Below are positions 556 through 54,244 of a DNA stretch of 64,000 nucleotides, piece after piece. Every line of letters begins with the position of its first letter. Positions within the stretch are counted from its first letter, which is position 1. Under the pieces are notes generated by a model that made no database searches, was not told where the DNA came from, and was given only the letters and a program-made list of their open reading frames with translations. Position numbers and translations under genes: made by a program. This DNA comes from a virus (Duplodnaviria > Caudoviricetes): IMG/VR virus record IMGVR_UViG_3300026522_000021; one strand, written 5' to 3'.

Positions 556-1035
556 TTAGTAAGCATCAAGAATTGGAAACTGTGACTGCATAGCACGGCA
601 GATGCGCATAAGCATATCAACGTCTTTTATCTCGCCCATATAGTATTTTAAATTTTCCTTCTGCACAGTTGTTAACTGCTCTATAAGTAGTGTACTCGGC
701 GCAGTCAGTCCGTATTTCTTATGATCCCATATCTCCACATGGCAAGGCAGATTTCTTTTGTTCATTTTAGTTGTCAACGGAATAGCATTTATCACCGTGC
801 TATGCTGATTGTTCTTGTCATTCGAGATAATAAATACTGGTCTATGACCGCCCTGAATACTGCCATCCTGTGACGGAAGATTAGCCATCCAGATTTCTCC
901 GCATTTAACATCACGACTTTCAGCCCCGATGAATTCAACACTATTATTTTCGTATTTAATGAAGAACGTCATAGGCTGCGCAGATTTTCCATCTCGTCTT
1001 GCCTGTGTTCTTATTCTTGTTGATGCATTCATCAT
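556..1035 (-). CDS. mazF: PemK/MazF family endoribonuclease
   Basis: GEIWMANL..DGSIQGGHRPVFIISNDKNN..STVINAIPLTT...LIEQLTTV are the PemK motifs; GGAGG RBS before ATG 1035/1032. Confidence 0.85.
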   Translation of the reverse strand: MMNASTRIRTQARRDGKSAQPMTFFIKYENNSVEFIGAESRDVKCGEIWMANLPSQDGSIQGGHRPVFIISNDKNNQHSTVINAIPLTTKMNKRNLPCHVEIWDHKKYGLTAPSTLLIEQLTTVQKENLKYYMGEIKDVDMLMRICRAMQSQFPILDAY

Positions 1036-1058
1036 AAGCCTCCAGTCTCCAGATACCA

Positions 1059-1421
1059 TTAAAAATCATCTAATGGTTTAGTTATGTTGTCATTCGATTT
1101 CCTTTTTACATAGAAATCATATCCGGGTTTAATCAACACCAGTTTTCCACATCTCGGAAGATCATAACCAAAGTAAGGCTTTTTATCTTTATTCTTATTC
1201 AGTTTGATCCTCATGAACCGTCCAACCGCATTGATAATTTCCACCGTGCGATCATCTGATTTGTTTGTGTATTTGATTGTACCATCATTCTTTAAATCGC
1301 CAGTGCCAATGAATAACCCTGTTGTCTTGTGGTTTATTCCAATAAAGTATCTATTCCAATTCATGTTACCACTCCTGAAATATGTGGTGTACTGCATCGA
1401 ACAATACACCACATTTTCCAT
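1059..1421 (-). CDS. hypothetical protein
   Basis: ORF translationally coupled with both neighbours. Confidence 0.65.
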   Translation of the reverse strand: MENVVYCSMQYTTYFRSGNMNWNRYFIGINHKTTGLFIGTGDLKNDGTIKYTNKSDDRTVEIINAVGRFMRIKLNKNKDKKPYFGYDLPRCGKLVLIKPGYDFYVKRKSNDNITKPLDDF

Positions 1422-1786
1422 TATTCTTCTGTAGCTTCATTATAATGTTTTTCGTTTTTATAAATGTTCTCCTCGTATTCAAATGCTTCTTTTGCATCCT
1501 CAAAACATTTACCGTCACTTGCCATCCATGTAGCGTTTACAAGAGTAAGACGATCTTTAATTCTTGTACGATAGCTTTTTGAAATGAAGCCGCTGTTGCC
1601 ATCAAAATACTGCTCTGGTATCAGTTCCTTCGCCCTAACCTTCATCCATCCGTTGCCATTATTATTTCCTGCCGCCGAAGGAGAATAGATCAAAGCCATG
1701 ATATGATTTTCCTGAAACACGCTAAACACATCAACCATACAGTTATGTTTCTTATAATACATTCTCTCCATCGTTATCGCCCCCAA
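1421..1786 (-). CDS. hypothetical protein
   Basis: ORF in the minus-strand operon; start uncertain. Confidence 0.6.
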   Translation of the reverse strand: MGAITMERMYYKKHNCMVDVFSVFQENHIMALIYSPSAAGNNNGNGWMKVRAKELIPEQYFDGNSGFISKSYRTRIKDRLTLVNATWMASDGKCFEDAKEAFEYEENIYKNEKHYNEATEE

Positions 1787-1791
1787 ACGTG

Positions 1792-2943
1792 TTACATGTC
1801 TACTTCTTCAGGCTCGTTCATGAAGTCAGAAGAAACATCCTCATGTTTTTCAATATCGGATTTTTCTGCTTCTTCAACGCCATCATCTTCATGTTCATCG
1901 GATGCCTCGATATCCACATCATCGAAGAACCGATCCCATACCTTTTCGATCTCATCATGTCTGCGCTTGATATTCGCGTTCTTTGCAGAACCACCCTTGC
2001 AAGCATCGGAGTAAGCATCGGACACGATCACGCCATTTCCGAAAAGTTCTACCATGAAATCGCCCATCAGCTTATCAGAAATCTCATCATCAATAGCCTG
2101 TTTGATCCACGGAACAAGCGAGATCATATGCGTTTCAGAAACCATTTTCTTTCTAACAGCCTTCGCAACCTTCGCATTGTCGTACTCCTCAAGCACATTA
2201 TAGATTGCGTAAATCTTATCCAGAACAGAAACGACCTCATCGCGCTCGGCATCGCTCATCTTCGTTTCCTGCATCACTTCGTTGAAAGTTCTGCTTTCAA
2301 AAGATACATCATCAATGTCCTCGTTCAGCATCATCCATACCTTCATGATGATCGGGAGCTGCTTTCTGGTTGCAAGCGCCTTTTCGGTCATGGTGTTCTG
2401 GAAAAGCTCATGCTTTCCAATATCAGAAACGGTGATGATGTCAACACAGTTAGCAATGTTGCGCTCTTTAGTGGAAAGGGGCTTTCCATTGTTCAGCTTC
2501 GCGAACAGCATCCGAACCTGTTCAGGAGTGATATCCTCGTAATAGTAGATCGTCAGGTGATAATCCTTGATTGCATCCTGAATCTCTTCGGGAAGGTCTT
2601 TAAAGTATTTCCCTTCAAGCCATTCCGTCTGCTCATTGCCCTCTGCATCAGTATATGTAATCTCAGGAACGCCAATCAGGTAATACTCGTTCTCGATGAA
2701 GCCACGAATAGCATTGATGCGCTGCTTTCCATCAAGGAAATCATATGTTCTTCCGTCAACCTTCTTTGCGTAAAATGGCGGTACAGGATATCCTTCAATC
2801 AGGGAATGAATCAGGTTACTCTTCCTTGTCTGTTCCCATACATAGGATCTCTGGATGATATTGTCGAAACTGAATGTTCCGTTTCCTGCCATTTTCGCGA
2901 TCTGCTTACAACTCCATGTAATGTTTGCTTTGTTAAGTGCCAT
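1792..2943 (-). CDS. DUF262 (ParB/Srx-like, GmrSD N-terminal) domain protein with acidic tail
   Basis: IQRSYVW, LIHSLIEGYPVPPFY, LDGKQR and FAKLNNGKPLS motifs; GGAGG RBS before ATG 2943. Confidence 0.85.
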   Translation of the reverse strand: MALNKANITWSCKQIAKMAGNGTFSFDNIIQRSYVWEQTRKSNLIHSLIEGYPVPPFYAKKVDGRTYDFLDGKQRINAIRGFIENEYYLIGVPEITYTDAEGNEQTEWLEGKYFKDLPEEIQDAIKDYHLTIYYYEDITPEQVRMLFAKLNNGKPLSTKERNIANCVDIITVSDIGKHELFQNTMTEKALATRKQLPIIMKVWMMLNEDIDDVSFESRTFNEVMQETKMSDAERDEVVSVLDKIYAIYNVLEEYDNAKVAKAVRKKMVSETHMISLVPWIKQAIDDEISDKLMGDFMVELFGNGVIVSDAYSDACKGGSAKNANIKRRHDEIEKVWDRFFDDVDIEASDEHEDDGVEEAEKSDIEKHEDVSSDFMNEPEEVDM

Positions 2944-3059
2944 TTCTTTATCCTCCTTTGTTTGATTTGCTTTGTGTTCTTTGTTTACTACCTCTCTATG
3001 TGAACATGTTACCACATAAAGAGGTAGATGTCAACTATTATTTTGAATTATTTTTTAAT

Positions 3060-3983
3060 TTATTTAATCAAGCTGTCAACCAATCCCATGATATCATTGA
3101 TTGCTTCGATATGGACAGATGCTTCAGTCGCGTTTGCGTTTCTCTGTCCTTCAGAATAAGCCATTGCGATTATGTCTCGCAGATCGGAAACCTCGATGCT
3201 GATAACTGGCTTGTCAGAAACTTCTTTATATTCTTTATCACCTGTCACATAGTCATCAAAGAAACCGCCCATATCATCATAATACTGATTGACTTTTTCT
3301 TTGGTTAATCCGATATAATGTTTAGTAGTTTTTGTATCGGAGTGATTGTAGATCGTCTGCAACAATTCCATGCTGTCATAATCATTCGGATGGATCATTC
3401 TGGAGATCATACCGAAAGTTTTTCTTGTGCTATGCGTCCCAACATTATAGGTAATTCCGATAACATCTGCTGCTTTCTTCAGCGCCTTGCGATAACCATC
3501 GCTGGTGATGACTGTTCCTCTATGCGTCCCTGTCAGCTGCATGAACACGTATTCGTGATAGCCATTCTTCTCAGGTTTTACACCAGTCTTTTCAATGTAC
3601 TTTTCAATAGCTTTTTTACAAGCGCTATTGATACGAGGATTCGCAAGCTTGTCTGTTTTATCCTCTACAATCTCAAGGATCTCATCTCTGATTTTCCCTG
3701 TCTGCGGATTGTAAAGATGCTCCCATGTAAGATTGAGTGTATCGCCAACGCGCCTCGCCATGTTGCATCCTAAGATGAAGAGCAGATAGTGAAGCCACAT
3801 CTCATTCTCTTCAAAGTATTCGATCATCTTCTTCATATCTTCCAACTGGAACGGATATACTTCAGACTTGCGACCTTTCTTTTTATTATTGGCTTTTTTC
3901 TCCTGACGAGGGAATTCAATGATGCTCGAATACCCTGTTCTTTCTTCCGTATCATTCCAGATATTCAATGCTCTGACTGCCAT
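3060..3983 (-). CDS. tyrosine recombinase/integrase family protein
   Basis: ARRVGD (R), HSTRKTFG (HxxR), YNHS (H) and HYIG (Y) give the catalytic set. Confidence 0.9.
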   Translation of the reverse strand: MAVRALNIWNDTEERTGYSSIIEFPRQEKKANNKKKGRKSEVYPFQLEDMKKMIEYFEENEMWLHYLLFILGCNMARRVGDTLNLTWEHLYNPQTGKIRDEILEIVEDKTDKLANPRINSACKKAIEKYIEKTGVKPEKNGYHEYVFMQLTGTHRGTVITSDGYRKALKKAADVIGITYNVGTHSTRKTFGMISRMIHPNDYDSMELLQTIYNHSDTKTTKHYIGLTKEKVNQYYDDMGGFFDDYVTGDKEYKEVSDKPVISIEVSDLRDIIAMAYSEGQRNANATEASVHIEAINDIMGLVDSLIK

Positions 3984-23526: not shown

Positions 23527-24393
23527 TTATTCATTGATCGCCTTTTCGAATGCTGCAACGATCTTTTTCGCGGCTACCTGTGCTTTATGCTTTCTGTACT
23601 CGGTGATGTTGTTGTATCTGCTGGTATCGAATGTGCTGTCGTTGAAATGTGCTACAAAGTTGTTCATGACGATCTCGGTGACTTTCGTTGCGAACTTTGC
23701 CATTTTCATGTACTGTTTGCTGTTCTGGAATTTTGCCATTCTGAATTCAAGCGTCATGCTGTGCTGTGTGTTTATGAAATTGGTATGGGATGTTGCATCG
23801 GTGTATTCGTTGATGCTTCTCGCCCAGCAATCACCCTCGCTGTTGTACTCGTCAATGCCGCGCCCGAAAAGCTTTCTCGTTGCTTCATCGTTTGCTTTCA
23901 TCGCCTCGGACAGTGGAAGAAACAGGCTGTGATAGAAACGGCGGATGTATCCGATTGTCTCGCTGTTCAGATCTCTATGCCCTACATGGAAGTGACTTCC
24001 TGCTGTCGATCCGATCTCCATGTCACCGTCTGCAATCAGACGATCCATCACTTTCCAAAGATGGGAAAAGCTCTTGAGGCTGTTTTCGATTGCGCTCTTG
24101 TATTCAACGTCAACCGTGCAATCTGCTGTAGGAAGCATCCCATACTCGTAAAGCTCGCTCCGCGCTTTAGCGTTGCTGTATGTTGTCTCGTTCTCCATGC
24201 CGTAAGTGAACGGATGAACGGTATCAGCTCCGCGCTGCTCGTTGTTCTTTGTTGTGTATCCGTGCATCTCGCTGTTGCAACGCTCGCAGATATAAGCTCC
24301 GCGCTGTCCGCGATTGTTCTTCTCGACTCTGTGCATGATGGAAATGTGACCGACTGCTCCGCATCTCGTGCATGTAACTGTTGTTCTTGCCAT
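23527..24393 (-). CDS. putative amidoligase (COOH-NH2 ligase, Amidoligase_2-like) with N-terminal zinc ribbon
   Basis: YGMENET, DCTV.VEYKS, AGSHFHVG and TLEFRM motifs; AAGGAG RBS before ATG 24393. Confidence 0.8.
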   Translation of the reverse strand: MARTTVTCTRCGAVGHISIMHRVEKNNRGQRGAYICERCNSEMHGYTTKNNEQRGADTVHPFTYGMENETTYSNAKARSELYEYGMLPTADCTVDVEYKSAIENSLKSFSHLWKVMDRLIADGDMEIGSTAGSHFHVGHRDLNSETIGYIRRFYHSLFLPLSEAMKANDEATRKLFGRGIDEYNSEGDCWARSINEYTDATSHTNFINTQHSMTLEFRMAKFQNSKQYMKMAKFATKVTEIVMNNFVAHFNDSTFDTSRYNNITEYRKHKAQVAAKKIVAAFEKAINE

Positions 24394-24775
24394 GATTTTG
24401 TTCTCCTTTTCGTTCGATGTGCTTGTGTGTTTGTTTTGTGTATGTGGTTTATTAGGTTCTGTCAATACAATAGCACCGTTAATAGATATTGTCAAGCATT
24501 ATTTTGCATTTTTTAAAAATTATTTTTTTCTGTCATTCTGGACAGGGAAAACAGAAAAAGACTTTTTTCTTTTCCCTTATATAGAAGAAACACAAACAAA
24601 AAACATGCTCCGATCTCCGCTCGGCGCGGCATTTTTTAGGGTAAAAAAGAGCCAAAAACCGCGTAAAATCAAGGCTTTTCGGCGTTTTGAGTCTCCTCCT
24701 GTTTTCCGCTGATTTTTCGATTGATTTTTACGGCTTATTAAGTTTTGCAAAACATGGATTTTTTGCGGAATATCG

Positions 24776-25013
24776 CTTTAATAGAGTAAAGCATGAAAGC
24801 GACAGGATCAGCACGCTTTATCACATTAAAGTGCGACAGTAAAGAAGGCAGATGATAGGTTAGATAGCACTAACCAGTATGCGCGGATCATATGGTTAGA
24901 TAATGCTAACTATCGGATGCAGCTGGACAGGTTAGAGCGCACTAACTCGGCAGTGAATACTTTATTGCTGTAAAGTGCGAAAGCTGCGGATCAGATGCTT
25001 TAACAGAGTAAAG
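24776..25013. repeat. four CTTTA-N6-TAAAG palindromes (unknown regulator site)
   Basis: 24776-24791, 24816-24831, 24960-24975 and 24998-25013; variants at ~23203, 25406-25421 and 25565-25580. Confidence 0.85.
24859..24946. repeat. three GTTAG-N6-CTAAC palindromes at an exact 36-bp period (DtxR/MntR-like metal regulator site?)
   Basis: Starts at 24859, 24895 and 24931. Confidence 0.85.
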
Positions 25014-25032
25014 TGATGAAGGAAGAAAAGCA

Positions 25033-25059
25033 TTAGCACTCTATCGCCGAGAGCGCTAA
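25033..25059. promoter_or_regulatory. CIRCE element (HrcA operator), 1 mismatch
   Basis: TTAGCACTC-TATCGCCGA-GAGCGCTAA. Confidence 0.85.
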
Positions 25060-25078
25060 ACTGGCAGACAGGATCATT

Positions 25079-25105
25079 TTAGCACTCCAGAATATCGAGT
25101 GCTAA
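25079..25105. promoter_or_regulatory. CIRCE element (HrcA operator), perfect
   Basis: TTAGCACTC-CAGAATATC-GAGTGCTAA. Confidence 0.95.
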
Positions 25106-25106
25106 T

Positions 25107-25271
25107 TGTGGAAAAATCGCGATAATTGAGTATGAATATTTATACAATTCTATGAATTGTGGATAACTTTTAAATAATGTGGATAACTTGACTGTAAATT
25201 GTGGATAACTCGGTATTTTTAGCTGATTTTGGAGGAAATTGTGGATAAAATGTGGATAACTTTGTGGAAAA
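25107..25271 (-). promoter_or_regulatory. cluster of 7 co-oriented DnaA boxes
   Basis: TTATCCACA (reverse complement) at 25158, 25178, 25200, 25240 and 25251; TTTTCCACA at 25107 and 25263. Confidence 0.92.
25131..25148. promoter_or_regulatory. ARG box-like (ArgR/AhrC) site
   Basis: TATGAATATTTATACAAT compared with the WWTGMATWWWWATKCAWW consensus. Confidence 0.55.
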
Positions 25272-25476
25272 AATTTTTTGTCGAAAATGCACAAAAACGC
25301 AAAAAATCCCAATTTTTAAAAACATCGAAAAAAGTCGATAAAAACGGCATTTTATTGTTTTTCAAAATTATATTTTTTTGTGCAATCCTACCAAAAATTT
25401 TAACACTTTACTCCGCTGAAGTAAGTCCGTTTTTTGTCCTTTTTCAGACTTGCCAGAAAAGACGGGGGGACAGAAT

Positions 25477-25544
25477 AAACCTACTATATTAGTATGTTTT
25501 CTATTGTCTGACAATTCGATCATTCTATACGGAATAGGGGTACA
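25477..25544. promoter_or_regulatory. adjacent Rrf2-like, GntR/FadR-like and CsoR-like palindromes
   Basis: AAACCTACTATATTAGTATGTTT (25477-25499), ATTGTCTGACAAT (25503-25515), TATACGGAATAGGGGTACA (25526-25544). Confidence 0.45.
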
Positions 25545-26036
25545 ATTTAAGTTATTGAGTGACACTTCACTCCGCTAAAGCCAGTATCGTGCCCCATCCC
25601 ACTCTTACAAAAAAATCCCAATTCCAATAAAAATTTTTTCCACACTCCCCCAATTTTTCATTTTGACTAAATCTGCCTATTAACGAAAACTTCACCGAAA
25701 AATTATTAAAGCACTAAAATAGTCAAAATCAATTCATTATCGAAGTCGCCCGAAAATCACAATCAAATTTTCTAATCATACTAAATCTGCCACTTTACAC
25801 CAATGCCATCTTCGGCAACCGAATAAATTCACCGAAGCGAAAATCGACCTTAAATATTCGAGCAGAAAAGTGTGATTTTTAAAAATTAAACATTTTAGAG
25901 AAAACGTACTGATATAGCCGATTTCATATATCTGGCGAAAAATCAGGATTAACGATCAGGAATTCAAACACATAAATTTGAGATTACCCGATTAAAATAT
26001 TTTGCCAATAAAAACGATCTGAAAATCAGTTTATAA

Positions 26037-26085
26037 ATAATGCAAAATAAGCCTTGACAATGTTTATAAAACTGTGCTACTATGT
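26037..26085 (+). promoter_or_regulatory. rightward sigma-A promoter with the conserved upstream 14-mer
   Basis: ATAATGCAAAATAA-gcc-TTGACA-N17-TACTAT with extended TG. Confidence 0.8.
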
Positions 26086-26341
26086 CAGTGTGGCAAAAGA
26101 TAGTTTCATTCTCCTGTGGTTTAATCCCACATTAGATGCAACTATTCCAACCGAACGGCACAACTATATATGTATGAACGTATAGGAATATAATCATTCT
26201 ATACTTGTATAGAGTGAATACATATATAGTTGTTACTATACAATAATATATTCTTGTATAGATTATTAATATGAGTATGCATTTTGTCCGTTGTTTAGAC
26301 GGACTATTTGCAAATCTGGTTATCAAATTGGAGGTAAAACG

Positions 26342-27046
26342 ATTGTCGGCAAAATTCCGAGAACGATAATATACAATAAAGACCTTGGCGAGAAACGTGT
26401 CCTCTTCTATCTTTATATATACTTCGCAGTATCGCGATCCAGAGAACTTATTTTAATCATAAATGAAGCGATAAAGTCAATAGGTTATCGACCAGATACA
26501 CACAAGGGAAAGATCAATGACGAGTTTGCGTCATTCATATCTCGGCTTGTGGATGGGGGATACATTAAAGTAATACGAAAGCATAAAGGGTACACCAAGT
26601 ATCAGGCGCTTCAGAAGATGGACGAAGCTCCATTCGGGATCATCAGATATGATGAATACCAGAAGATCATAAAAGGCGCGAGCAACAAAACCGCTGCTCT
26701 CCTGCTTCTGGCTTTCCTTCGTCTGAATTCTTATAAGCGGACAGATAAGAATGATAAACAACCAGAGGTTTACTTCTGCCACCTGAGTGAACTTCCGAAT
26801 AAATTAGGATTATCATCTCGCGCAGTATCATCGTCATTGAACGCGCTATCTTCTCTTGGTTTAATCCATAGTGAAGAACAGAGGCGGTATCAGGATAAAT
26901 ACGGAAACTGGCATTCAGGTGTTTATCTGTTTATCGACAAGGCGAAATATAACAACGAAGAAATAGACCAGTCATATAATTGGCAGAAAGAATTCGAGCT
27001 TGCATCAAAATGGTTGGTGCGTGAACAAGCCAAATATAATGACTAA
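26342..27046 (+). CDS. winged-HTH protein, possible replication initiator or regulator; probable ATT start
   Basis: LSELPNKLGLSSRAVSSSLNALSSLGLI HTH; GGAGGT at 26330 followed by in-frame ATT at 26342. Confidence 0.6.
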   Translation: MVGKIPRTIIYNKDLGEKRVLFYLYIYFAVSRSRELILIINEAIKSIGYRPDTHKGKINDEFASFISRLVDGGYIKVIRKHKGYTKYQALQKMDEAPFGIIRYDEYQKIIKGASNKTAALLLLAFLRLNSYKRTDKNDKQPEVYFCHLSELPNKLGLSSRAVSSSLNALSSLGLIHSEEQRRYQDKYGNWHSGVYLFIDKAKYNNEEIDQSYNWQKEFELASKWLVREQAKYND

Positions 27047-27238
27047 AATTAAAACTATATAAATAATGCAAGATAACACAAATCATTTGTTTGCCCTCCT
27101 GACGCACGCAGATGCCCCTATTTCGCGTTTAAACATACTAAGTGGATAAACTATAGGGTTCGACTTTAAAGTGTCTTAAAACGCCTTCTGGCGCGTTATA
27201 CGGCAAAGTGAAATATTATCTTGCAGGAGGTTACTACA

Positions 27239-36750: not shown

Positions 36751-37956
36751 ATGTCAAATATTAGTTTAGAAAAACAGCCAAATGAAAACGAAGAGCAATT
36801 CATATGGCGATTAGGTCAAGCAAAAGATTCTGGTATCCTTGATTTAGACTGGAACGAGCTTGCCGATGTTATAAATAAAGCATGGAGGCAAGATGAAACA
36901 GAATACAAAAGCGAAGCTGCGTATCGCAAATGCTATCAATATGCAAAACGTTTTTATGAAGCAAACGTTTTTAACCAGTATTCTGACGAGGACACTTATA
37001 TAAAACAATTACGTGATGCAAAGGTTGAGCTTAGAAAAGAAAAACAAAAAATGTTTGATGAACGTACAGAGCTTAATCGTAAAATTCGAGAACAGGCAAG
37101 ATGCGAGTCATTCATTGATTTGGTTACTGATAAGATTTCAAATGTAGCACCACTTGAATTAAATTATCGAGACAAAGATATTATTGAATCTGATAACGAT
37201 ATTATTTGTCATATTACTGATCTACATGCTGGTATACATATAGACAACTGGTATAACAAATTCAATATGGATGTGTTAAAAGAAAGGCTGACCAATTATC
37301 TGGATCAGCTTTTTCAAATTCAACAACGGCATAATTCAGAAGATTGTTATATTGTAATTGGCGAAATCATGTCTGGTTTAATCCATGAAACGTTGAGGAT
37401 AGAAAATAATGAAAATGTTATTCAACAGTTCATTATGGTATCTTCTATTCTTTCCGAGATGATTTCAGAAATAGCAAAGCGTTTTAATAATGTCTATGTC
37501 TATATTACACCCGGAAATCATTCACGAGTAATTGCAAATAAAGAGCATTCATTACGTGGAGAGAATTTTGATATACTACTCCCCCACTATCTTAAAGCGA
37601 GCTTGCAGAATTATCAAAACGTCTTTATAGAGGATAATCTTAAAGATTGCGATATTGCAATGTTCGAAGTTCGTGGAAATAAAGTAATGGGTGTGCATGG
37701 TGATAAGGACGATGTTGGAAGTGTCGTTCAAAAATTCACTATGGTATTCGGAATAAAACCAGATATTGTTTTAATGGGACATAGGCATACAAATGCAATG
37801 ACAACAGTTTATGATACAAAAGTCATTCAATCTGGATGTGTTTCTGGCTCTGACAACTATTGTCTTGATAAACGATTAAAGAATAGACCAGAGCAAACAG
37901 TTTCGATTGTAAGCCATGACGGACTTGTTTGCATATATGATATAAAAGTAGATTAA
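36751..37956 (+). CDS. calcineurin-like metallophosphoesterase/nuclease with N-terminal coiled coil
   Basis: TDLHAG, GNHSR, HGD, MGHRH. Confidence 0.85.
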   Translation: MSNISLEKQPNENEEQFIWRLGQAKDSGILDLDWNELADVINKAWRQDETEYKSEAAYRKCYQYAKRFYEANVFNQYSDEDTYIKQLRDAKVELRKEKQKMFDERTELNRKIREQARCESFIDLVTDKISNVAPLELNYRDKDIIESDNDIICHITDLHAGIHIDNWYNKFNMDVLKERLTNYLDQLFQIQQRHNSEDCYIVIGEIMSGLIHETLRIENNENVIQQFIMVSSILSEMISEIAKRFNNVYVYITPGNHSRVIANKEHSLRGENFDILLPHYLKASLQNYQNVFIEDNLKDCDIAMFEVRGNKVMGVHGDKDDVGSVVQKFTMVFGIKPDIVLMGHRHTNAMTTVYDTKVIQSGCVSGSDNYCLDKRLKNRPEQTVSIVSHDGLVCIYDIKVD

Positions 37957-38005
37957 AAGTCTATCTGAAAACGGATAGGCTTTTATTATTGGAGAAGAAA
38001 GAGAG

Positions 38006-38284
38006 ATGAAAAAAAATGATTTAGTTTTGGAAATCGCAAGTAGATTGGGATTACCTAAAGTTGAATGTGAAAAAGTAATTGATACATTTGCAGACGTTGT
38101 AACCGATGCGTTAGTAGATGGCGACAAAGTAACCATAAGAGGGTTTTTAACTTTTGAAACATCCGAATGCAAAGCGAGGGAAGGCTACAATCCACAGACA
38201 GGTAAAATGCAGCACTACTCTTCTGTCAAGACAGTAAAGTGCAAAGTTGGTCAACCAATCAAAGATGCGGTTAATGAGAGGTAA
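38006..38284 (+). CDS. hup: HU family DNA-binding protein
   Basis: MKKNDLV...KVTIRGFLTF...AREGYNPQTG. Confidence 0.9.
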   Translation: MKKNDLVLEIASRLGLPKVECEKVIDTFADVVTDALVDGDKVTIRGFLTFETSECKAREGYNPQTGKMQHYSSVKTVKCKVGQPIKDAVNER

Positions 38285-38290
38285 TAAAGT

Positions 38291-38800
38291 ATGGATACAA
38301 TTTCTTTTTTAAGTCATGCTGATTTAGCTGAATATATGGCTGATAAAGCTCTTGATGGAAAAACAGTTACAGCAGTTCTCTTCTACGAAGATGCGAAAGT
38401 ATTGCTAAAGGAATTAGCTTGTTTTGAAGATACTACTATCGAAAATGTTGAAATGCACGAACCAGTATGGAAAGGATATAACAAAGAATTTTATGTAACT
38501 ATTGATGACAGCCTTTGCATATGGGTTGAAGAAGCATATCACGAAGTCGAGGAAACTGGCTTTAAAGGATATTATAGATTTGGTGGCGAAGATGTAATCG
38601 CATTAATTGACAGCGAAGCAAGTTCACTTGTAGTTAAAGCTGCTGATGGCAGTGGATATATTGCCGAGATTGAAGTTGTTGCAGATGCTTGCTGTGATTG
38701 TGAATGTTGTGAATATCGCAGCGAATTCATTACAGAGGAATTTGAAGAAGGTCTGCGTGATTTAATCGAATATATTTTTGAACATTTTACAGAAGAGTAA
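38291..38800 (+). CDS. acidic hypothetical protein
   Basis: GAGGT RBS; Cys cluster near the C-terminus. Confidence 0.75.
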   Translation: MDTISFLSHADLAEYMADKALDGKTVTAVLFYEDAKVLLKELACFEDTTIENVEMHEPVWKGYNKEFYVTIDDSLCIWVEEAYHEVEETGFKGYYRFGGEDVIALIDSEASSLVVKAADGSGYIAEIEVVADACCDCECCEYRSEFITEEFEEGLRDLIEYIFEHFTEE

Positions 38801-38815
38801 ACCACTCTTCTATTT

Positions 38816-38888
38816 TGCCAGATAGCTCAGTTGGCAGAGCGCACGGCTGTTAACCGTGATGTCGAGAGTTCGAGCCTCTCTCTGGCAG
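38816..38888 (+). tRNA. tRNA-Asn(GTT)
   Basis: Anticodon loop CTGTTAA. Confidence 0.93.
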
Positions 38889-38933
38889 TTTACCAATAAT
38901 GATATTGGTTACTTTTAACGGAATAACTTTTAT

Positions 38934-39007
38934 TTGGATGTAGTTCAGTTTGGTAGAACGCCTGATTTGGGATCAGGAGGTCGCAAGTTCGAGTCTTGTC
39001 ATTCAAA
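38934..39007 (+). tRNA. tRNA-Pro(TGG)
   Basis: Anticodon loop TTTGGGA. Confidence 0.92.
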
Positions 39008-39008
39008 C

Positions 39009-39084
39009 TGCGGAATAGAGAAGTCTGGTCTATCTCGTTAGCCTCATAAGCTAAAAATCGTGGGTTCAAATCCCACTTCCGCTA
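39009..39084 (+). tRNA. tRNA-Met(CAT), initiator-like
   Basis: Anticodon loop CTCATAA; unpaired 1:72. Confidence 0.88.
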
Positions 39085-53138: not shown

Positions 53139-54244
53139 ATGCCTGATATTAATAAAGCTAATCGACAGGTGTGCGATGTTGATATTCGTGTGTTAAAGAC
53201 AATGGCTCCATTCCTGTTCTTCGATACCGCTAATACTACCACAGCTGGTCTGTCTGGTGATTCTGTTTATGCTATGAAGAAGGGTGTGCGTGCAATCGCG
53301 TTCCATAATCCGATTGAAGGTACTATGACTATCGAGGCACAGGTTATGCCGTTCAAGGCTTATTCCCTGTTCTCTGATGGTACTATTGATAACACAGCTG
53401 CTTATGCTGTGAAGAAAACTATTAAATGTACTACTGCTGGCGAACTTGATATTACTGGCGCAAAGGCTGGCACTGTGTTCGTGTATGCTTCTGGTGAGTT
53501 TGGCAATACACAGATTGCAGGAACTTATGCTTCTAACAAGTTCACCGCTACTACCAAAAATGATATTGCGGTCGATACCGAGTATGAAGTTGGTTACATC
53601 GTAGAAAGAACTGAGAATGTTAAGAAGGTTTCCTTCAATAACAAGAAAGTTCCGAAGGATTATTACATTACAATGTCTACTCTGGATAAGGGTGAGGATG
53701 ATTCCCTTACACCTTTCATTATGACTGCTTACAAAGCGTCTATCCAGAGAAACTTCGAGCTTTCCTTCTCTTCTGAAGGCGATCCTGCTTCTGTGACAAT
53801 CACATTAAATAATGATAGTGTGCGCGTACAGAAATGTGCGTGATAAGATAACCTATTGAATTGCTGAAAAACCCTAAAGCTATATATACTACAACGTAAG
53901 AATGAAATAAGTCTAAGCGTGAATGTTGCGAAAGCTGAAAGAAATATATAGATGATATAAGGTTAAATCCTAAGTATTGGAATAATGGGCAACCAGCAGC
54001 TAAGACTCGAATAGAGTAAAGTTCAACGACTATCCGTAAGGAGTACACCATAAGCTATTGATGGTGGAAGTGGTAGGCATCCGCAAGGATGAAGATATAG
54101 TCTGCACTTCGTATGAAAGTACGAGAAGCGTATTATACGCTTGGGAATATATAGCGAATATTCCTTAACACAATGGTTGATTTACTTGAAGATAAAAATG
54201 GTAATGTTCTTGATATGATCGAGGACACAACTGACGTAGAGTAA
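53139..54244 (+). CDS. major tail (tube) protein, spliced: join(53139..53805,54177..54244), 244 aa
   Basis: Splicing restores FSSEGDPASVTIT-F-DLLEDKNGNVLDM; strong codon bias; terminator at ~54253. Confidence 0.8.
53806..54176 (+). ncRNA. group I intron (ORF-less) in the major tail gene
   Basis: P1 CACAU/GUGUG with U-G pair; P AATTGCTGAAA, Q AACCAGCAG, R GTTCAACGACTA, S AAGATATAGTC; ends in G. Confidence 0.9.

What the first reader, a model, noticed from the sequence alone, without database searches (positions are those of the whole stretch)
24775..25580. Packed array of operators for many different host DNA-binding proteins (candidate transcription-factor decoy or DNA-entry handle)
Seen: about 800 bp of non-coding DNA is tiled almost end to end with operator-like sites. 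In order: CTTTA-N6-TAAAG x2, GTTAG-N6-CTAAC x3, CTTTA-N6-TAAAG x2, CIRCE x2, an ARG box within a run of 7 DnaA boxes, then CTTTA variants flanking Rrf2-, GntR- and CsoR-like palindromes. Spacer bases differ between copies while the half-sites are kept, which points to selection for protein binding rather than simple duplication. None of the sites overlaps the nearest promoters (24490 leftward, 26054 rightward), and no heat-shock, metal or arginine gene is nearby. Established: CIRCE binds HrcA, TTATCCACA binds DnaA, ARG boxes bind ArgR/AhrC. Inference, three options: (a) a protein-free sponge that, once the phage is multi-copy, titrates host repressors (de-repressing GroEL/DnaK, metal uptake, amino-acid and Fe-S genes) and sequesters DnaA; (b) a first-injected end that is bound and anchored or shielded by abundant host proteins; (c) a multi-input stress-sensing origin. 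I know of no described phage element like this.
Basis: partly seen in the sequence, partly recalled or inferred. Interest (0 to 1): 0.92.

Follow-up and report, generated by a model that had tools for sequence, protein, structure and literature searches.

The report
Host-protein docking array at phage origin
Beside its probable replication origin, a large phage of gut or rumen Clostridia keeps a dense block of real binding sites for host proteins (DnaA, the heat-shock repressor HrcA and a metal-sensing repressor); similar blocks recur in many unrelated phages, so phages may read or soak up host regulators through non-coding DNA.

Summary
In the 64-kb window, every exact copy of CTTTA-N6-TAAAG (A, 4), GTTAG-N6-CTAAC (B, 3) and CIRCE (2) lies in 24776-25105. 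Seven co-oriented DnaA boxes and a 23-29% GC stretch follow. This is the strand-switch spacer of a YonO-RNA-polymerase phage, next to a weakly DnaD-like gene.

- **Relatives:** the same kinds of site persist, but number, order and spacers change. A relative whose DnaD-like protein is only 45% identical still has 8 DnaA boxes flanked by CIRCE.
- **B:** I tested it in Clostridia genomes. It behaves as the operator of a DtxR/MntR-family repressor, lying before feoA and before the repressor's own gene.
- **A:** not enriched in host genomes. It also sits at the terminal origins of a phi29-like phage. Its binder is unknown.
- **Other phages:** mixed arrays of A, B, CIRCE and Rex boxes co-cluster in many IMG/VR phages. 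This scan has already noted the same class on other DNA (Rex/HrcA array in a 176-kb rumen phage; Fur arrays in T5-like phages).
- **Not supported:** the Rrf2/GntR/CsoR labels. The ARG box is inconclusive.

Best reading: a DnaA-dependent origin gated by host-state repressors (0.42). Main rival: a transcription-factor sponge (0.30). No experiment or transcript data could be obtained.

The parts
23527..24393 (-). First leftward (early-arm) gene, 288 aa, no family match; homologues keep this position in relatives
   Evidence: 44% identical homologue in L186/G001 at the same place
24467..24495 (-). Promoter-like site of the first leftward gene (TTGACA, 17 nt, TG-extended second hexamer)
   Evidence: conserved in L001 and L377
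24776..24839 (.). A palindromes 1 and 2 (CTTTA-N6-TAAAG), each followed by a third half-site-like GAAAG/GACAG word
24859..24946 (.). Three B palindromes (GTTAG-N6-CTAAC) at an exact 36-bp period; operator type of a Clostridial DtxR/MntR-family repressor
   Evidence: host regulon evidence
24960..25021 (.). A palindromes 3 and 4 with third half-site
25033..25059 (.). CIRCE-1 (one mismatch); on the minus strand also scored as a terminator-like hairpin with a T-rich tail
25079..25105 (.). CIRCE-2, a perfect match to the HrcA operator consensus; abuts the first DnaA box
25076..25105 (-). Promoter-like site inside CIRCE-2, reading leftward through CIRCE-1 and the A/B array
   Evidence: second hexamer kept and first weakened in L377
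25107..25271 (+). Seven co-oriented DnaA boxes
   Evidence: conserved in L377 (8 boxes), L397 (8) and L366 (3)
25131..25148 (+). Single ARG-box-like word (1 mismatch); variable, absent from L377
25272..25400 (.). AT-rich stretch (23-29% GC), candidate unwinding element; contains one TGTCGAA word (25279)
25406..25421 (.). A-like palindrome (1 mismatch) just left of an invariant block; a perfect CIRCE occupies the same aligned position in L397
25565..25580 (.). A-like palindrome (1 mismatch) followed by a conserved word; position-fixed in L001 and L397, with a perfect A pair at the homologous stretch in G001
25430..26053 (.). Conserved non-coding right half of the spacer, with lineage-specific short repeats
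26054..26083 (+). Rightward promoter-like site (TTGACA, 18 nt, TG-extended)
26160..26233 (+). Highly conserved leader with a 16-nt perfect inverted repeat ahead of the DnaD-like gene
26291..27046 (+). 251-aa protein, weak match to DnaD-like helicase loader (phrog_186, E 6e-6) and to a winged-helix family
27221..30004 (+). YonO-type single-subunit RNA polymerase (PF05183), the lineage marker used to find relatives

Best explanation
The stretch is the left half of the phage's 1.9-kb central non-coding control region.

1. **Core (inferred origin).** The core is most likely a host-DnaA-dependent replication origin. It has seven co-oriented DnaA boxes, then an AT-rich stretch, at the point where gene orientation and GC skew switch. 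A DnaD-like gene lies beside it.
2. **Sites packed against the core.**
   - Two CIRCE, the operator of the heat-shock repressor HrcA.
   - Three B palindromes, the operator type of a Clostridial DtxR/MntR-family metal repressor.
   - Four A palindromes, plus two A-like variants, whose binder is unknown. A is found next to origins in unrelated phage families.
3. **Proposed mechanism (inferred, not shown).** In an unstressed cell the repressors and DnaA coat this DNA. Their occupancy on both sides of the unwinding region gates origin firing. It also gates a CIRCE-embedded leftward promoter. The signals are protein-folding load, metal status and DnaA activity. Host Spo0A boxes gate phi29 transcription and replication in this way.
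4. **By-product.** Once the genome is multicopy, the same proteins are unavoidably titrated.
For: - **Anatomy.** DnaA cluster, 23-29% GC stretch, strand and skew switch, DnaD-like neighbour.
- **Module behaviour.** In L001 (RNA polymerase 84% identical) the DnaA boxes are replaced, at the same position, by about eight AAAATGGTTT iterons, while the flanks stay homologous. Swapping of the initiator-site module is typical of origins.
- **Deep conservation.** L377 has 8 boxes plus 2 CIRCE. L397 has CIRCE, then 8 boxes, then an AT-rich stretch, then a perfect CIRCE, so CIRCE flanks the unwinding region. L366 has 3 boxes.
- **Positional equivalence.** A perfect CIRCE in L397 sits at the aligned position of the window's A-like site, directly before an invariant block. 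This argues for a position-dependent role rather than mere site number.
- **Selection on arms.** The CIRCE-2 spacer is fully replaced and the arms are kept between near-identical phages.
- **A at origins elsewhere.** A arrays lie 38-113 nt from both ends, inside 401-nt inverted terminal repeats, of a phi29-like podovirus.
- **B is a host operator.**
- **Promoter-like site in CIRCE-2.**. A perfect CIRCE in L045 lies 9 nt before a TATAAT and reads into a B/A array.
- **Precedent.** PMC2731898.
Against: - No replication, binding or transcript data exist for this phage.
- GC skew is confounded with gene orientation.
- I saw no DnaA-trio-like repeats beside the boxes (by eye only).
- The DnaD-like call is weak: E 6e-6, with no Pfam or PDB sequence match.
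- Most A, B and CIRCE sites are 100-600 bp from the mapped promoter-like sites, where classical repression is not expected.
- In other phages the same operators reach 4-14 tandem copies. That is more than a switch needs and fits titration or a centromere-like complex better.
- The A2-B3-A2 block differs from B-A-B in a 98%-identical relative, so its exact layout is not critical.
Confidence: 0.42

Rival explanations
1. Transcription-factor sponge. The array has no cis role. Once the phage is at tens to hundreds of copies, its high-affinity sites titrate HrcA, the metal repressor and DnaA. In relatives they also titrate Rex and perhaps CtsR. This de-represses chaperones, metal uptake and redox genes and starves the host origin of DnaA, to the phage's benefit.
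For: - Every identified binder except DnaA is a repressor whose regulon would help phage production.
- Sites are consensus-perfect and mostly away from promoters.
- Related Clostridia genomes carry only 2-6 perfect CIRCE each, so each phage copy adds as many as a typical host has.
- Other phages carry 4 alternating CIRCE (L296), 5 Rex-type boxes plus 2 CIRCE (L304), and 10-14 B or A copies.
- Mixed arrays co-cluster far above background and reversed-motif controls.
- Copy number and order turn over quickly between close relatives.
- The arrays occur in phage lineages without shared marker genes.
- Synthetic decoy arrays do titrate bacterial regulators (PMC7826281, abstract).
Against: - This window has only 2 CIRCE and 3 B sites.
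- Positions are not random: CIRCE and A-like sites hold fixed places around the DnaA/AT-rich module across deep divergence.
- hrcA and many such repressors are autoregulated, which buffers titration (established knowledge).
- No expression data exist, and my searches found no paper showing a natural phage decoy.
Confidence: 0.3
2. Platform for phage-encoded proteins. A and B would be iterons, a centromere, or operators of a phage regulator or packaging protein, like SPBRE/MrpR in SPbeta or the omega sites of inc18 plasmids. The CIRCE and DnaA matches would be secondary.
For: - A is not enriched in five Clostridia genomes.
- A carries a third half-site, as many multimeric phage or plasmid binders require.
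- Arrays of 10-14 copies look like centromeres.
- In L198, B pairs sit before each early promoter, like a master-repressor element.
- The window encodes Cro/C1-type, CI-like and integrase-family proteins.
- MrpR precedent (PMC10516654).
Against: - B has a clear host regulon, including the repressor's own gene.
- A and B occur in phage groups that share no detectable proteins near the arrays.
- No par genes were found among the window ORFs scanned.
- In the window, A and B are confined to one array and are not dispersed at promoters.
Confidence: 0.12
3. Injection-stop or anchoring signal of the T5 type. Host proteins, with DnaA at the membrane, would seize this DNA as it enters and pause transfer after the early arm. 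Or the array would mark or shield a genome end.
For: - It resembles the T5 injection-stop region: a large untranslated stretch with repeats, palindromes and 8 DnaA boxes (10.1101/866236).
- The left arm is full of small host-takeover and anti-restriction-type genes, each with its own promoter.
- Enterocloster phage records of this RNA-polymerase lineage start at the equivalent strand-switch spacer.
Against: - There is no evidence on virion ends.
- The array lies at least 24 kb from the window's left edge, and by the scan's offsets about 50 kb into the contig.
- The T5 mechanism is itself only a proposal.
Confidence: 0.06

Closest known systems
Phage T5 injection stop signal region (Davison, bioRxiv 10.1101/866236)
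   Same: A large untranslated phage region crowded with repeats, inverted repeats and palindromes, plus a series of 8 DnaA boxes said to be reminiscent of oriC. It borders an arm of early host-takeover genes. Earlier notes of this scan (unchecked by me) report host Fur-box arrays there, which would parallel the metal-repressor B sites here.
   Different: T5 is a Gram-negative phage and the region lies in a terminal repeat about 8% from the end. Neither a terminal position nor two-step injection is shown for this phage. CIRCE and the A and B palindromes are absent from that description.
Host Spo0A boxes (and parS sites) on phi29-family genomes (PMC2731898)
   Same: Binding sites for a host regulator on a phage genome. 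They repress early promoters and block initiation at the phage origins, tying phage development to host state.
   Different: phi29 has one regulator, a few sites and experimentally shown effects. Here at least three host proteins have clustered sites and nothing has been tested. However, A arrays do sit at the terminal origins of a phi29-like gut phage.
DnaA-box-containing plasmid and phage-plasmid origins (P1 oriR, oriC-type origins; my own knowledge)
   Same: A cluster of DnaA boxes next to an AT-rich region, with accessory protein sites and a neighbouring replication gene.
   Different: No Rep-iteron set can be assigned in this window. The DnaA-trio/basal unwinding arrangement was not seen. 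Operators of stress repressors are not a known part of such origins.
SPbeta repeated element bound by the master repressor MrpR (PMC10516654)
   Same: A phage lineage with a YonO-type polymerase, and a short repeated element in intergenic regions bound by one regulator that controls the lytic programme.
   Different: SPBRE is dispersed at about ten promoters and bound by a phage protein. Here the repeats form one array, and at least B and CIRCE are host operators.
Decoy transcription-factor binding sites (synthetic: PMC7826281) and the E. coli datA DnaA sink (my own knowledge)
   Same: Clusters of high-affinity sites that act by sequestering a DNA-binding protein rather than by controlling a neighbouring promoter.
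   Different: My searches found no natural phage-borne multi-regulator decoy. Sequestration here is only inferred.
Corynephage tox operator controlled by host DtxR (my own knowledge)
   Same: A phage-borne operator for a host DtxR-family metal repressor.
   Different: That case is a single operator at one promoter with the classical 19-bp box. Here three phased sites with a different half-site spacing lie at no mapped promoter.

Membership tests
CIRCE / HrcA operator | Inverted repeat of 9 nt arms separated by 9 nt matching the consensus | tested here: met
   Perfect at 25079 and one mismatch at 25033. No other match with up to 4 mismatches in 64 kb.
CIRCE / HrcA operator | Arms under selection independent of the spacer | tested here: met
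   L377 keeps the arms (one mismatch each) while the CIRCE-2 spacer is entirely different. A perfect CIRCE is present in L397 at 45% protein identity.
CIRCE / HrcA operator | Sits at or just downstream of a vegetative promoter of a chaperone operon | tested here: inconclusive
   No chaperone gene lies nearby. A promoter-like site overlaps CIRCE-2 on the minus strand, but no transcript data exist.
CIRCE / HrcA operator | Bound by HrcA of the host | not testable with these tools
   The host is unknown. Related Clostridia genomes hold 2-6 perfect CIRCE each.
DnaA-dependent replication origin | Cluster of DnaA boxes | tested here: met
   7 boxes in 165 bp, against 1.8 words of this type expected per 64 kb.
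DnaA-dependent replication origin | Adjacent AT-rich unwinding region | tested here: met
   23-29% GC at 25250-25400, nearly invariant between the window and L377.
DnaA-dependent replication origin | DnaA-trio / basal unwinding arrangement beside the last boxes | tested here: not met
   No trinucleotide repeat is visible after the last boxes. This was by eye only, with the motif recalled from memory.
DnaA-dependent replication origin | Skew and orientation switch, with a replication gene adjacent | tested here: met
   Cumulative skew minimum at 20-26 kb, though confounded with gene orientation. DnaD-like neighbour (weak).
DnaA-dependent replication origin | Supports initiation of replication | not testable with these tools
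   Needs marker-frequency analysis or an autonomous-replication assay.
DtxR/MntR-family operator (B palindrome) | Promoter-proximal sites before metal-transport genes in host genomes | tested here: met
   Enriched over the reversed control in 3 of 5 Clostridia genomes (15 v 1, 7 v 0, 11 v 1). The sites are intergenic, before feoA, a ZIP transporter, a P-type ATPase and ABC exporters.
DtxR/MntR-family operator (B palindrome) | Site at the repressor's own gene | tested here: met
   In the feoA/dtxR-like divergent spacer of G009 and upstream of the dtxR-like gene of G008. Not seen at the dtxR-like genes of G006 and G010.
DtxR/MntR-family operator (B palindrome) | Match to the classical 19-bp DtxR/IdeR box | tested here: not met
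   Same half-site word, but 6 nt between the halves instead of 1 (read from the sequence; consensus from memory).
T5-type injection stop signal | Untranslated repeat/palindrome region with a DnaA-box series | tested here: met
   against the abstract of 10.1101/866236.
T5-type injection stop signal | Lies in a terminal repeat near the first-injected end; two-step transfer | not testable with these tools
No terminal data exist.
Transcription-factor decoy | High-affinity sites without a promoter to control, in multiple copies | tested here: inconclusive
   Mostly true. However, one CIRCE overlaps a promoter-like site, and positions are conserved around the AT-rich module.
Transcription-factor decoy | Host regulons de-repressed by the element in multicopy | not testable with these tools
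   Needs RNA-seq or reporter assays.
ARG box (ArgR/AhrC operator) | Tandem 18-bp boxes, conserved | tested here: inconclusive
   A single box with 1 mismatch; operators normally have a tandem pair, and no second box is present. It is the only such match in the window. The segment is deleted in L377.
Plasmid-type centromere / iteron array | Repeat array with cognate par or rep gene next to it | tested here: not met
   No ParA/ParB/Rep family was found among the window ORFs scanned. Rep3_N gave only a sub-threshold hit on another ORF.
SPBRE-like master-repressor element | Same element dispersed at many early promoters of the phage | tested here: not met
   A and B are confined to 24776-25013 plus two variants. 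The feature is met in another phage, L198.

The most novel reading that the evidence does not exclude
Many large phages of Firmicutes, and by this scan's earlier notes T5-like phages too, carry protein-free arrays of host-repressor operators (HrcA, Rex, DtxR/Fur-type, perhaps CtsR) together with DnaA boxes. In this reading the arrays work as multicopy decoys. As the genome replicates, they strip the host's stress, redox and metal repressors and DnaA from the chromosome. The host is reprogrammed without any phage protein.
Probability: 0.3. Interest if true: 0.9.

Novelty: new variant of a known kind. Interest (0 to 1): 0.76.

Why it matters
Phages are known to take over hosts with proteins. Cis-acting DNA that recruits or drains several host regulators at once is essentially undescribed.

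This work shows three things:
- The sites are real.
- They are under selection.
- They recur in phage lineages that share no marker genes.

It also gives one orphan palindrome an identity, as a DtxR/MntR-type operator. That turns a vague idea into concrete experiments with named proteins: HrcA, DnaA and a metal repressor.

Either outcome would be a new principle of phage-host coupling. One is an origin that is licensed by the host's folding, metal and replication status. The other is a DNA sponge that de-represses chaperones and metal uptake. Either would also bear on the unexplained repeat/DnaA-box region of T5.

Tried and rejected
- **Chance.** Rejected by shuffles and by conservation.
- **Window-specific oddity.** Rejected: relatives and unrelated phages carry such arrays.
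- **General trait of YonO-polymerase phages.** Rejected: PMBT24, c-st and the L002-L005 clade lack all four motifs in the syntenic DNA.
- **A or B dispersed through the window like SPBRE.** No.
- **Rex, CtsR, LexA, CodY, Fur, PerR, Zur, cre, parS or NrdR sites in the spacer.** None found. The TGTCGAA word occurs 14 times in the window, so the one in the spacer carries no weight.
- **Protein families tied to the arrays.** All-against-all clustering of 8547 ORFs from 352 loci gave lineage clusters only. Their representatives have no Pfam match. The small protein next to the arrays in L060, L045, L208 and L198 has no homologue in the window.
- **DnaD-like protein.** No PDB sequence match.
- **Whole genome of the window.** Not held.
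- **Literature.** No paper on CIRCE in phages, on natural phage decoys or on CIRCE titration was found.
- **Identity of the A binder.** Not found. A is not enriched in five Clostridia genomes.
- **Not attempted.** Structure prediction and complex prediction, because no claim here rests on a fold or a protein-protein contact.
Full report
**1. What the window is**

The 927-aa ORF at 27221-30004 is a YonO-type single-subunit RNA polymerase (PF05183). Its nearest named relatives are in Clostridium phage c-st, Enterocloster phages and SPbeta-like phages.
- Genes left of 24.4 kb all read leftward and genes right of 26.3 kb all read rightward. The cumulative GC skew has its minimum at 20-26 kb.
- The left arm holds small early-type genes: an ArdC-N-like protein, a DarA_C protein, a Cro/C1 HTH protein, a sliding clamp, an integrase-family protein, a MazF toxin and a GmrSD-like protein.
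- The right arm starts with a 251-aa protein that weakly matches DnaD-like helicase loaders (phrog_186, E 6e-6), followed by the polymerase and structural genes.
- The finding lies in the 1.9-kb gene-free spacer between the arms (24394-26290).
- No whole genome is held for the window.
- Relatives sit in MAGs and isolates of Clostridia such as Ruminococcus, Roseburia and Tyzzerella.

**2.

I define the motifs once:
- A = CTTTA-N6-TAAAG
- B = GTTAG-N6-CTAAC
- CIRCE = TTAGCACTC-N9-GAGTGCTAA
- DnaA box = TGTGGATAA

In the 64 kb all four exact A sites, all three B sites and both CIRCE lie between 24776 and 25105, in the order A A B B B A A C C.
- The B sites are exactly 36 bp apart.
- Each A is followed by a third half-site-like word.
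- Seven co-oriented DnaA boxes follow at 25107-25271, then a 23-29% GC stretch.
- Shuffles expect 0.22 A, 0.06 B and 1.8 DnaA-type words in the whole window.
- Two one-mismatch A-like sites lie at 25406 and 25565.

CIRCE-2 coincides with a promoter-like site on the minus strand. CIRCE-1 lies just downstream of it and is also scored as a terminator-like hairpin. So one part of the array has the classical operator-at-promoter layout.

**3. The syntenic spacer in relatives**

| Relative | How related | Spacer content |
|---|---|---|
| L377 | polymerase N-terminus 98% identical | B-A-B, two CIRCE (one mismatch each), eight DnaA boxes |
| L001 | polymerase 84% identical | about eight B-like palindromes; DnaA boxes replaced in place by about eight AAAATGGTTT iterons; no CIRCE |
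| G001 | complete 167-kb phage, polymerase 56% identical | only a perfect A pair, at the place of the window's A-like sites, plus its own short iterons |
| L394 | DnaD-like protein 63% identical | two A-like sites |
| L397 | DnaD-like protein 45% identical | a CIRCE cut by the contig end, eight perfect DnaA boxes, an AT-rich stretch, a perfect CIRCE |
| L366 | polymerase 45% identical | three DnaA boxes |

Further details:
- In L377 the CIRCE-2 spacer is completely different while the arms are kept. The ARG-like segment is deleted. The AT-rich stretch is almost invariant.
- In L001 the right half of the spacer stays homologous to the window.
- In L397 the right-hand CIRCE occupies the aligned position of the window's A-like site, directly before an invariant block. 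The second A-like site is conserved with the same mismatch.
- PMBT24, c-st and the L002-L005 clade have none of the motifs.

So the kinds of site are conserved, while number, order and spacers are not. Some positions around the DnaA/AT-rich module are fixed, yet they accept palindromes of different specificity.

**4. Identity of B**

B is over-represented against its reversed control in three of five Clostridia genomes (15 v 1, 7 v 0, 11 v 1).

In Ruminococcus sp. YE282 the sites are nearly all intergenic (13 of 16 lie outside ORFs of at least 90 aa) and share an extended 20-bp palindrome. They lie 10-60 bp before several operons:
- feoA-feoA;
- a ZIP transporter;
- a small membrane protein followed by a P-type ATPase;
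- ABC exporters;
- an ECF component;
- a DUF2325-like gene.

In G009 a B site lies in the 148-bp spacer between a divergent feoA and a DtxR/MntR-family repressor gene. In G008 an exact and a one-mismatch B site lie upstream of the repressor gene.

B is therefore the operator type of a Clostridial DtxR/MntR-family regulator. It shares the half-site of the classical DtxR box but has a different spacing.

**5. Identity of A**

A is not enriched in those five genomes, so it gives no sign of a host regulon there. It is nevertheless widespread in phages:
- with its extra half-sites it forms arrays of up to 15 copies;
- it flanks B arrays in the same A-A-Bn-A-A layout in a complete 126-kb phage that lacks the YonO polymerase (L060);
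- it lies 38-113 nt from both ends of a 13-kb phi29-like podovirus with 401-nt inverted terminal repeats, that is, at protein-primed origins.

Its binder is unknown. Its association with origins in unrelated phages is the one functional hint.

**6. A recurrent class**

Pattern scans of IMG/VR show that A, B, CIRCE and TTGTGAA-N4-TTCACAA cluster together. The last is the Rex operator consensus as I recall it; PMC8457756 quotes the Clostridial variant.

| Locus | Array content |
|---|---|
| L304 (176-kb contig), L336 | B, CIRCE, A, B, A, B, four to five Rex-type boxes, a second CIRCE, then the rightward promoter |
| L296 | four CIRCE alternating with three B at a 49-bp period |
| L045 | a perfect CIRCE 9 nt before a TATAAT, reading into a B/A array |
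| L208 | three DnaA boxes, B and A arrays and a CtsR-like direct repeat |
| L198 | a B pair between the terminator of each early gene and the next promoter |

Motif densities near and far from the selected sites, per 10 kb:

| Loci chosen for | Motif counted | Within 500 bp | Elsewhere |
|---|---|---|---|
| B pairs | A | 2.59 | 0.21 |
| B pairs | Rex-type boxes | 0.63 | 0.02 |
| CIRCE | A | 0.87 | 0.15 |
| CIRCE | B | 1.17 | 0.29 |

Reversed-motif controls gave no hits near the selected sites for A, B, Rex-type and CtsR words. The reversed DnaA word gave 4 against 7 real DnaA boxes near B, so the DnaA co-occurrence is not significant by this test.

Earlier notes of this scan describe the same class on other DNA: a Rex/HrcA array in a 176-kb rumen phage, which is probably my L304, and Fur-box arrays next to the DnaA boxes of T5-like phages. 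I did not test the T5 claim.

**7. Mechanism**

Shown:
- The sites exist and are selected.
- Three of the four families match host DNA-binding proteins.
- The DnaA module behaves like a swappable initiator-site cassette next to an AT-rich stretch and a DnaD-like gene.

Inferred: what the occupancy does.

I rank a host-gated, DnaA-dependent origin first (0.42), for three reasons:
- CIRCE and A-type sites hold fixed flanking positions around the unwinding region across deep divergence.
- One CIRCE is embedded in a promoter-like site.
- phi29 gives a worked precedent in which host Spo0A represses early promoters and blocks initiation (PMC2731898).

The sponge reading is a serious rival (0.30), for four reasons:
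- The identified binders other than DnaA are repressors of regulons useful to a phage.
- The hosts have only 2-6 CIRCE.
- Other phages carry far more copies than a switch needs.
- Composition turns over fast.

The two readings are not exclusive, because titration is a physical consequence of multicopy high-affinity sites.

A platform for phage-encoded proteins (0.12) fits A better than B. A T5-like injection stop or end structure (0.06) has no positive evidence here.

**8. Novelty**

Three precedents exist: host-factor sites in phage origins, the T5 DnaA-box region (10.1101/866236) and the phi29 0A boxes. My searches found no description of a dense, multi-regulator array with HrcA and DtxR-type operators at a phage origin. 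Its recurrence across lineages is also undescribed. I class it as a new variant of a known kind. The decoy reading is the most novel case still open.

Noticed in passing
window 53818-54125: Group I intron (Rfam RF00028, 71.8 bits) in the late arm. Six tRNA genes lie at 33119-39084.
   Followed up: no
window 29997-30893: A GIY-YIG/homing-endonuclease-like ORF overlaps the 3' end of the YonO-type polymerase gene. In G001 the polymerase homologue carries one in-frame TGA (L243), and in c-st and several Enterocloster phages the gene is split into pieces.
   Followed up: no
window 26160-26233 (also L001 about 1600-1690, L397 about 1165-1240): Very strongly conserved leader ahead of the DnaD-like gene, with a perfect 16-nt inverted repeat. 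It could be an operator or a structured 5' UTR.
   Followed up: no
L001 655-745: About eight AAAATGGTTT-type iterons occupy the position where the window has DnaA boxes. Their binder is unknown.
   Followed up: partly
L060 and L198, intergenic regions of the early arm: A GGCCGGCC-containing word recurs in nearly every early intergenic spacer. In L198 it lies between the two B sites of each pair.
   Followed up: no
L304 5400-5700 and L336 10420-10700: Right after the rightward promoter comes several hundred bases of odd low-complexity T/A/G/C-patterned repeats with no ORF.
   Followed up: no
L152 1-401 and 12801-13201: A phi29-like 13-kb podovirus with 401-nt perfect inverted terminal repeats. 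A second 25-nt tandem repeat lies next to the A array inside the repeats.
   Followed up: partly
L208 6525-6545: A CtsR-box-like direct heptad repeat lies directly after an A array in a GC-rich phage. This is a possible further host stress-repressor site.
   Followed up: no
L380 1583-1909 and L390 298-579: A DUF2325-like small gene lies next to B sites in two different Clostridia genomes. It may be a conserved member of the metal-repressor regulon.
   Followed up: no
window 556-3015: A MazF-type toxin ORF and a GmrSD-N-like ORF sit at the far left of the early arm. An integrase-family ORF at 3060-3983 is 28% identical to one placed beside the central spacer in the L002 clade.
   Followed up: no
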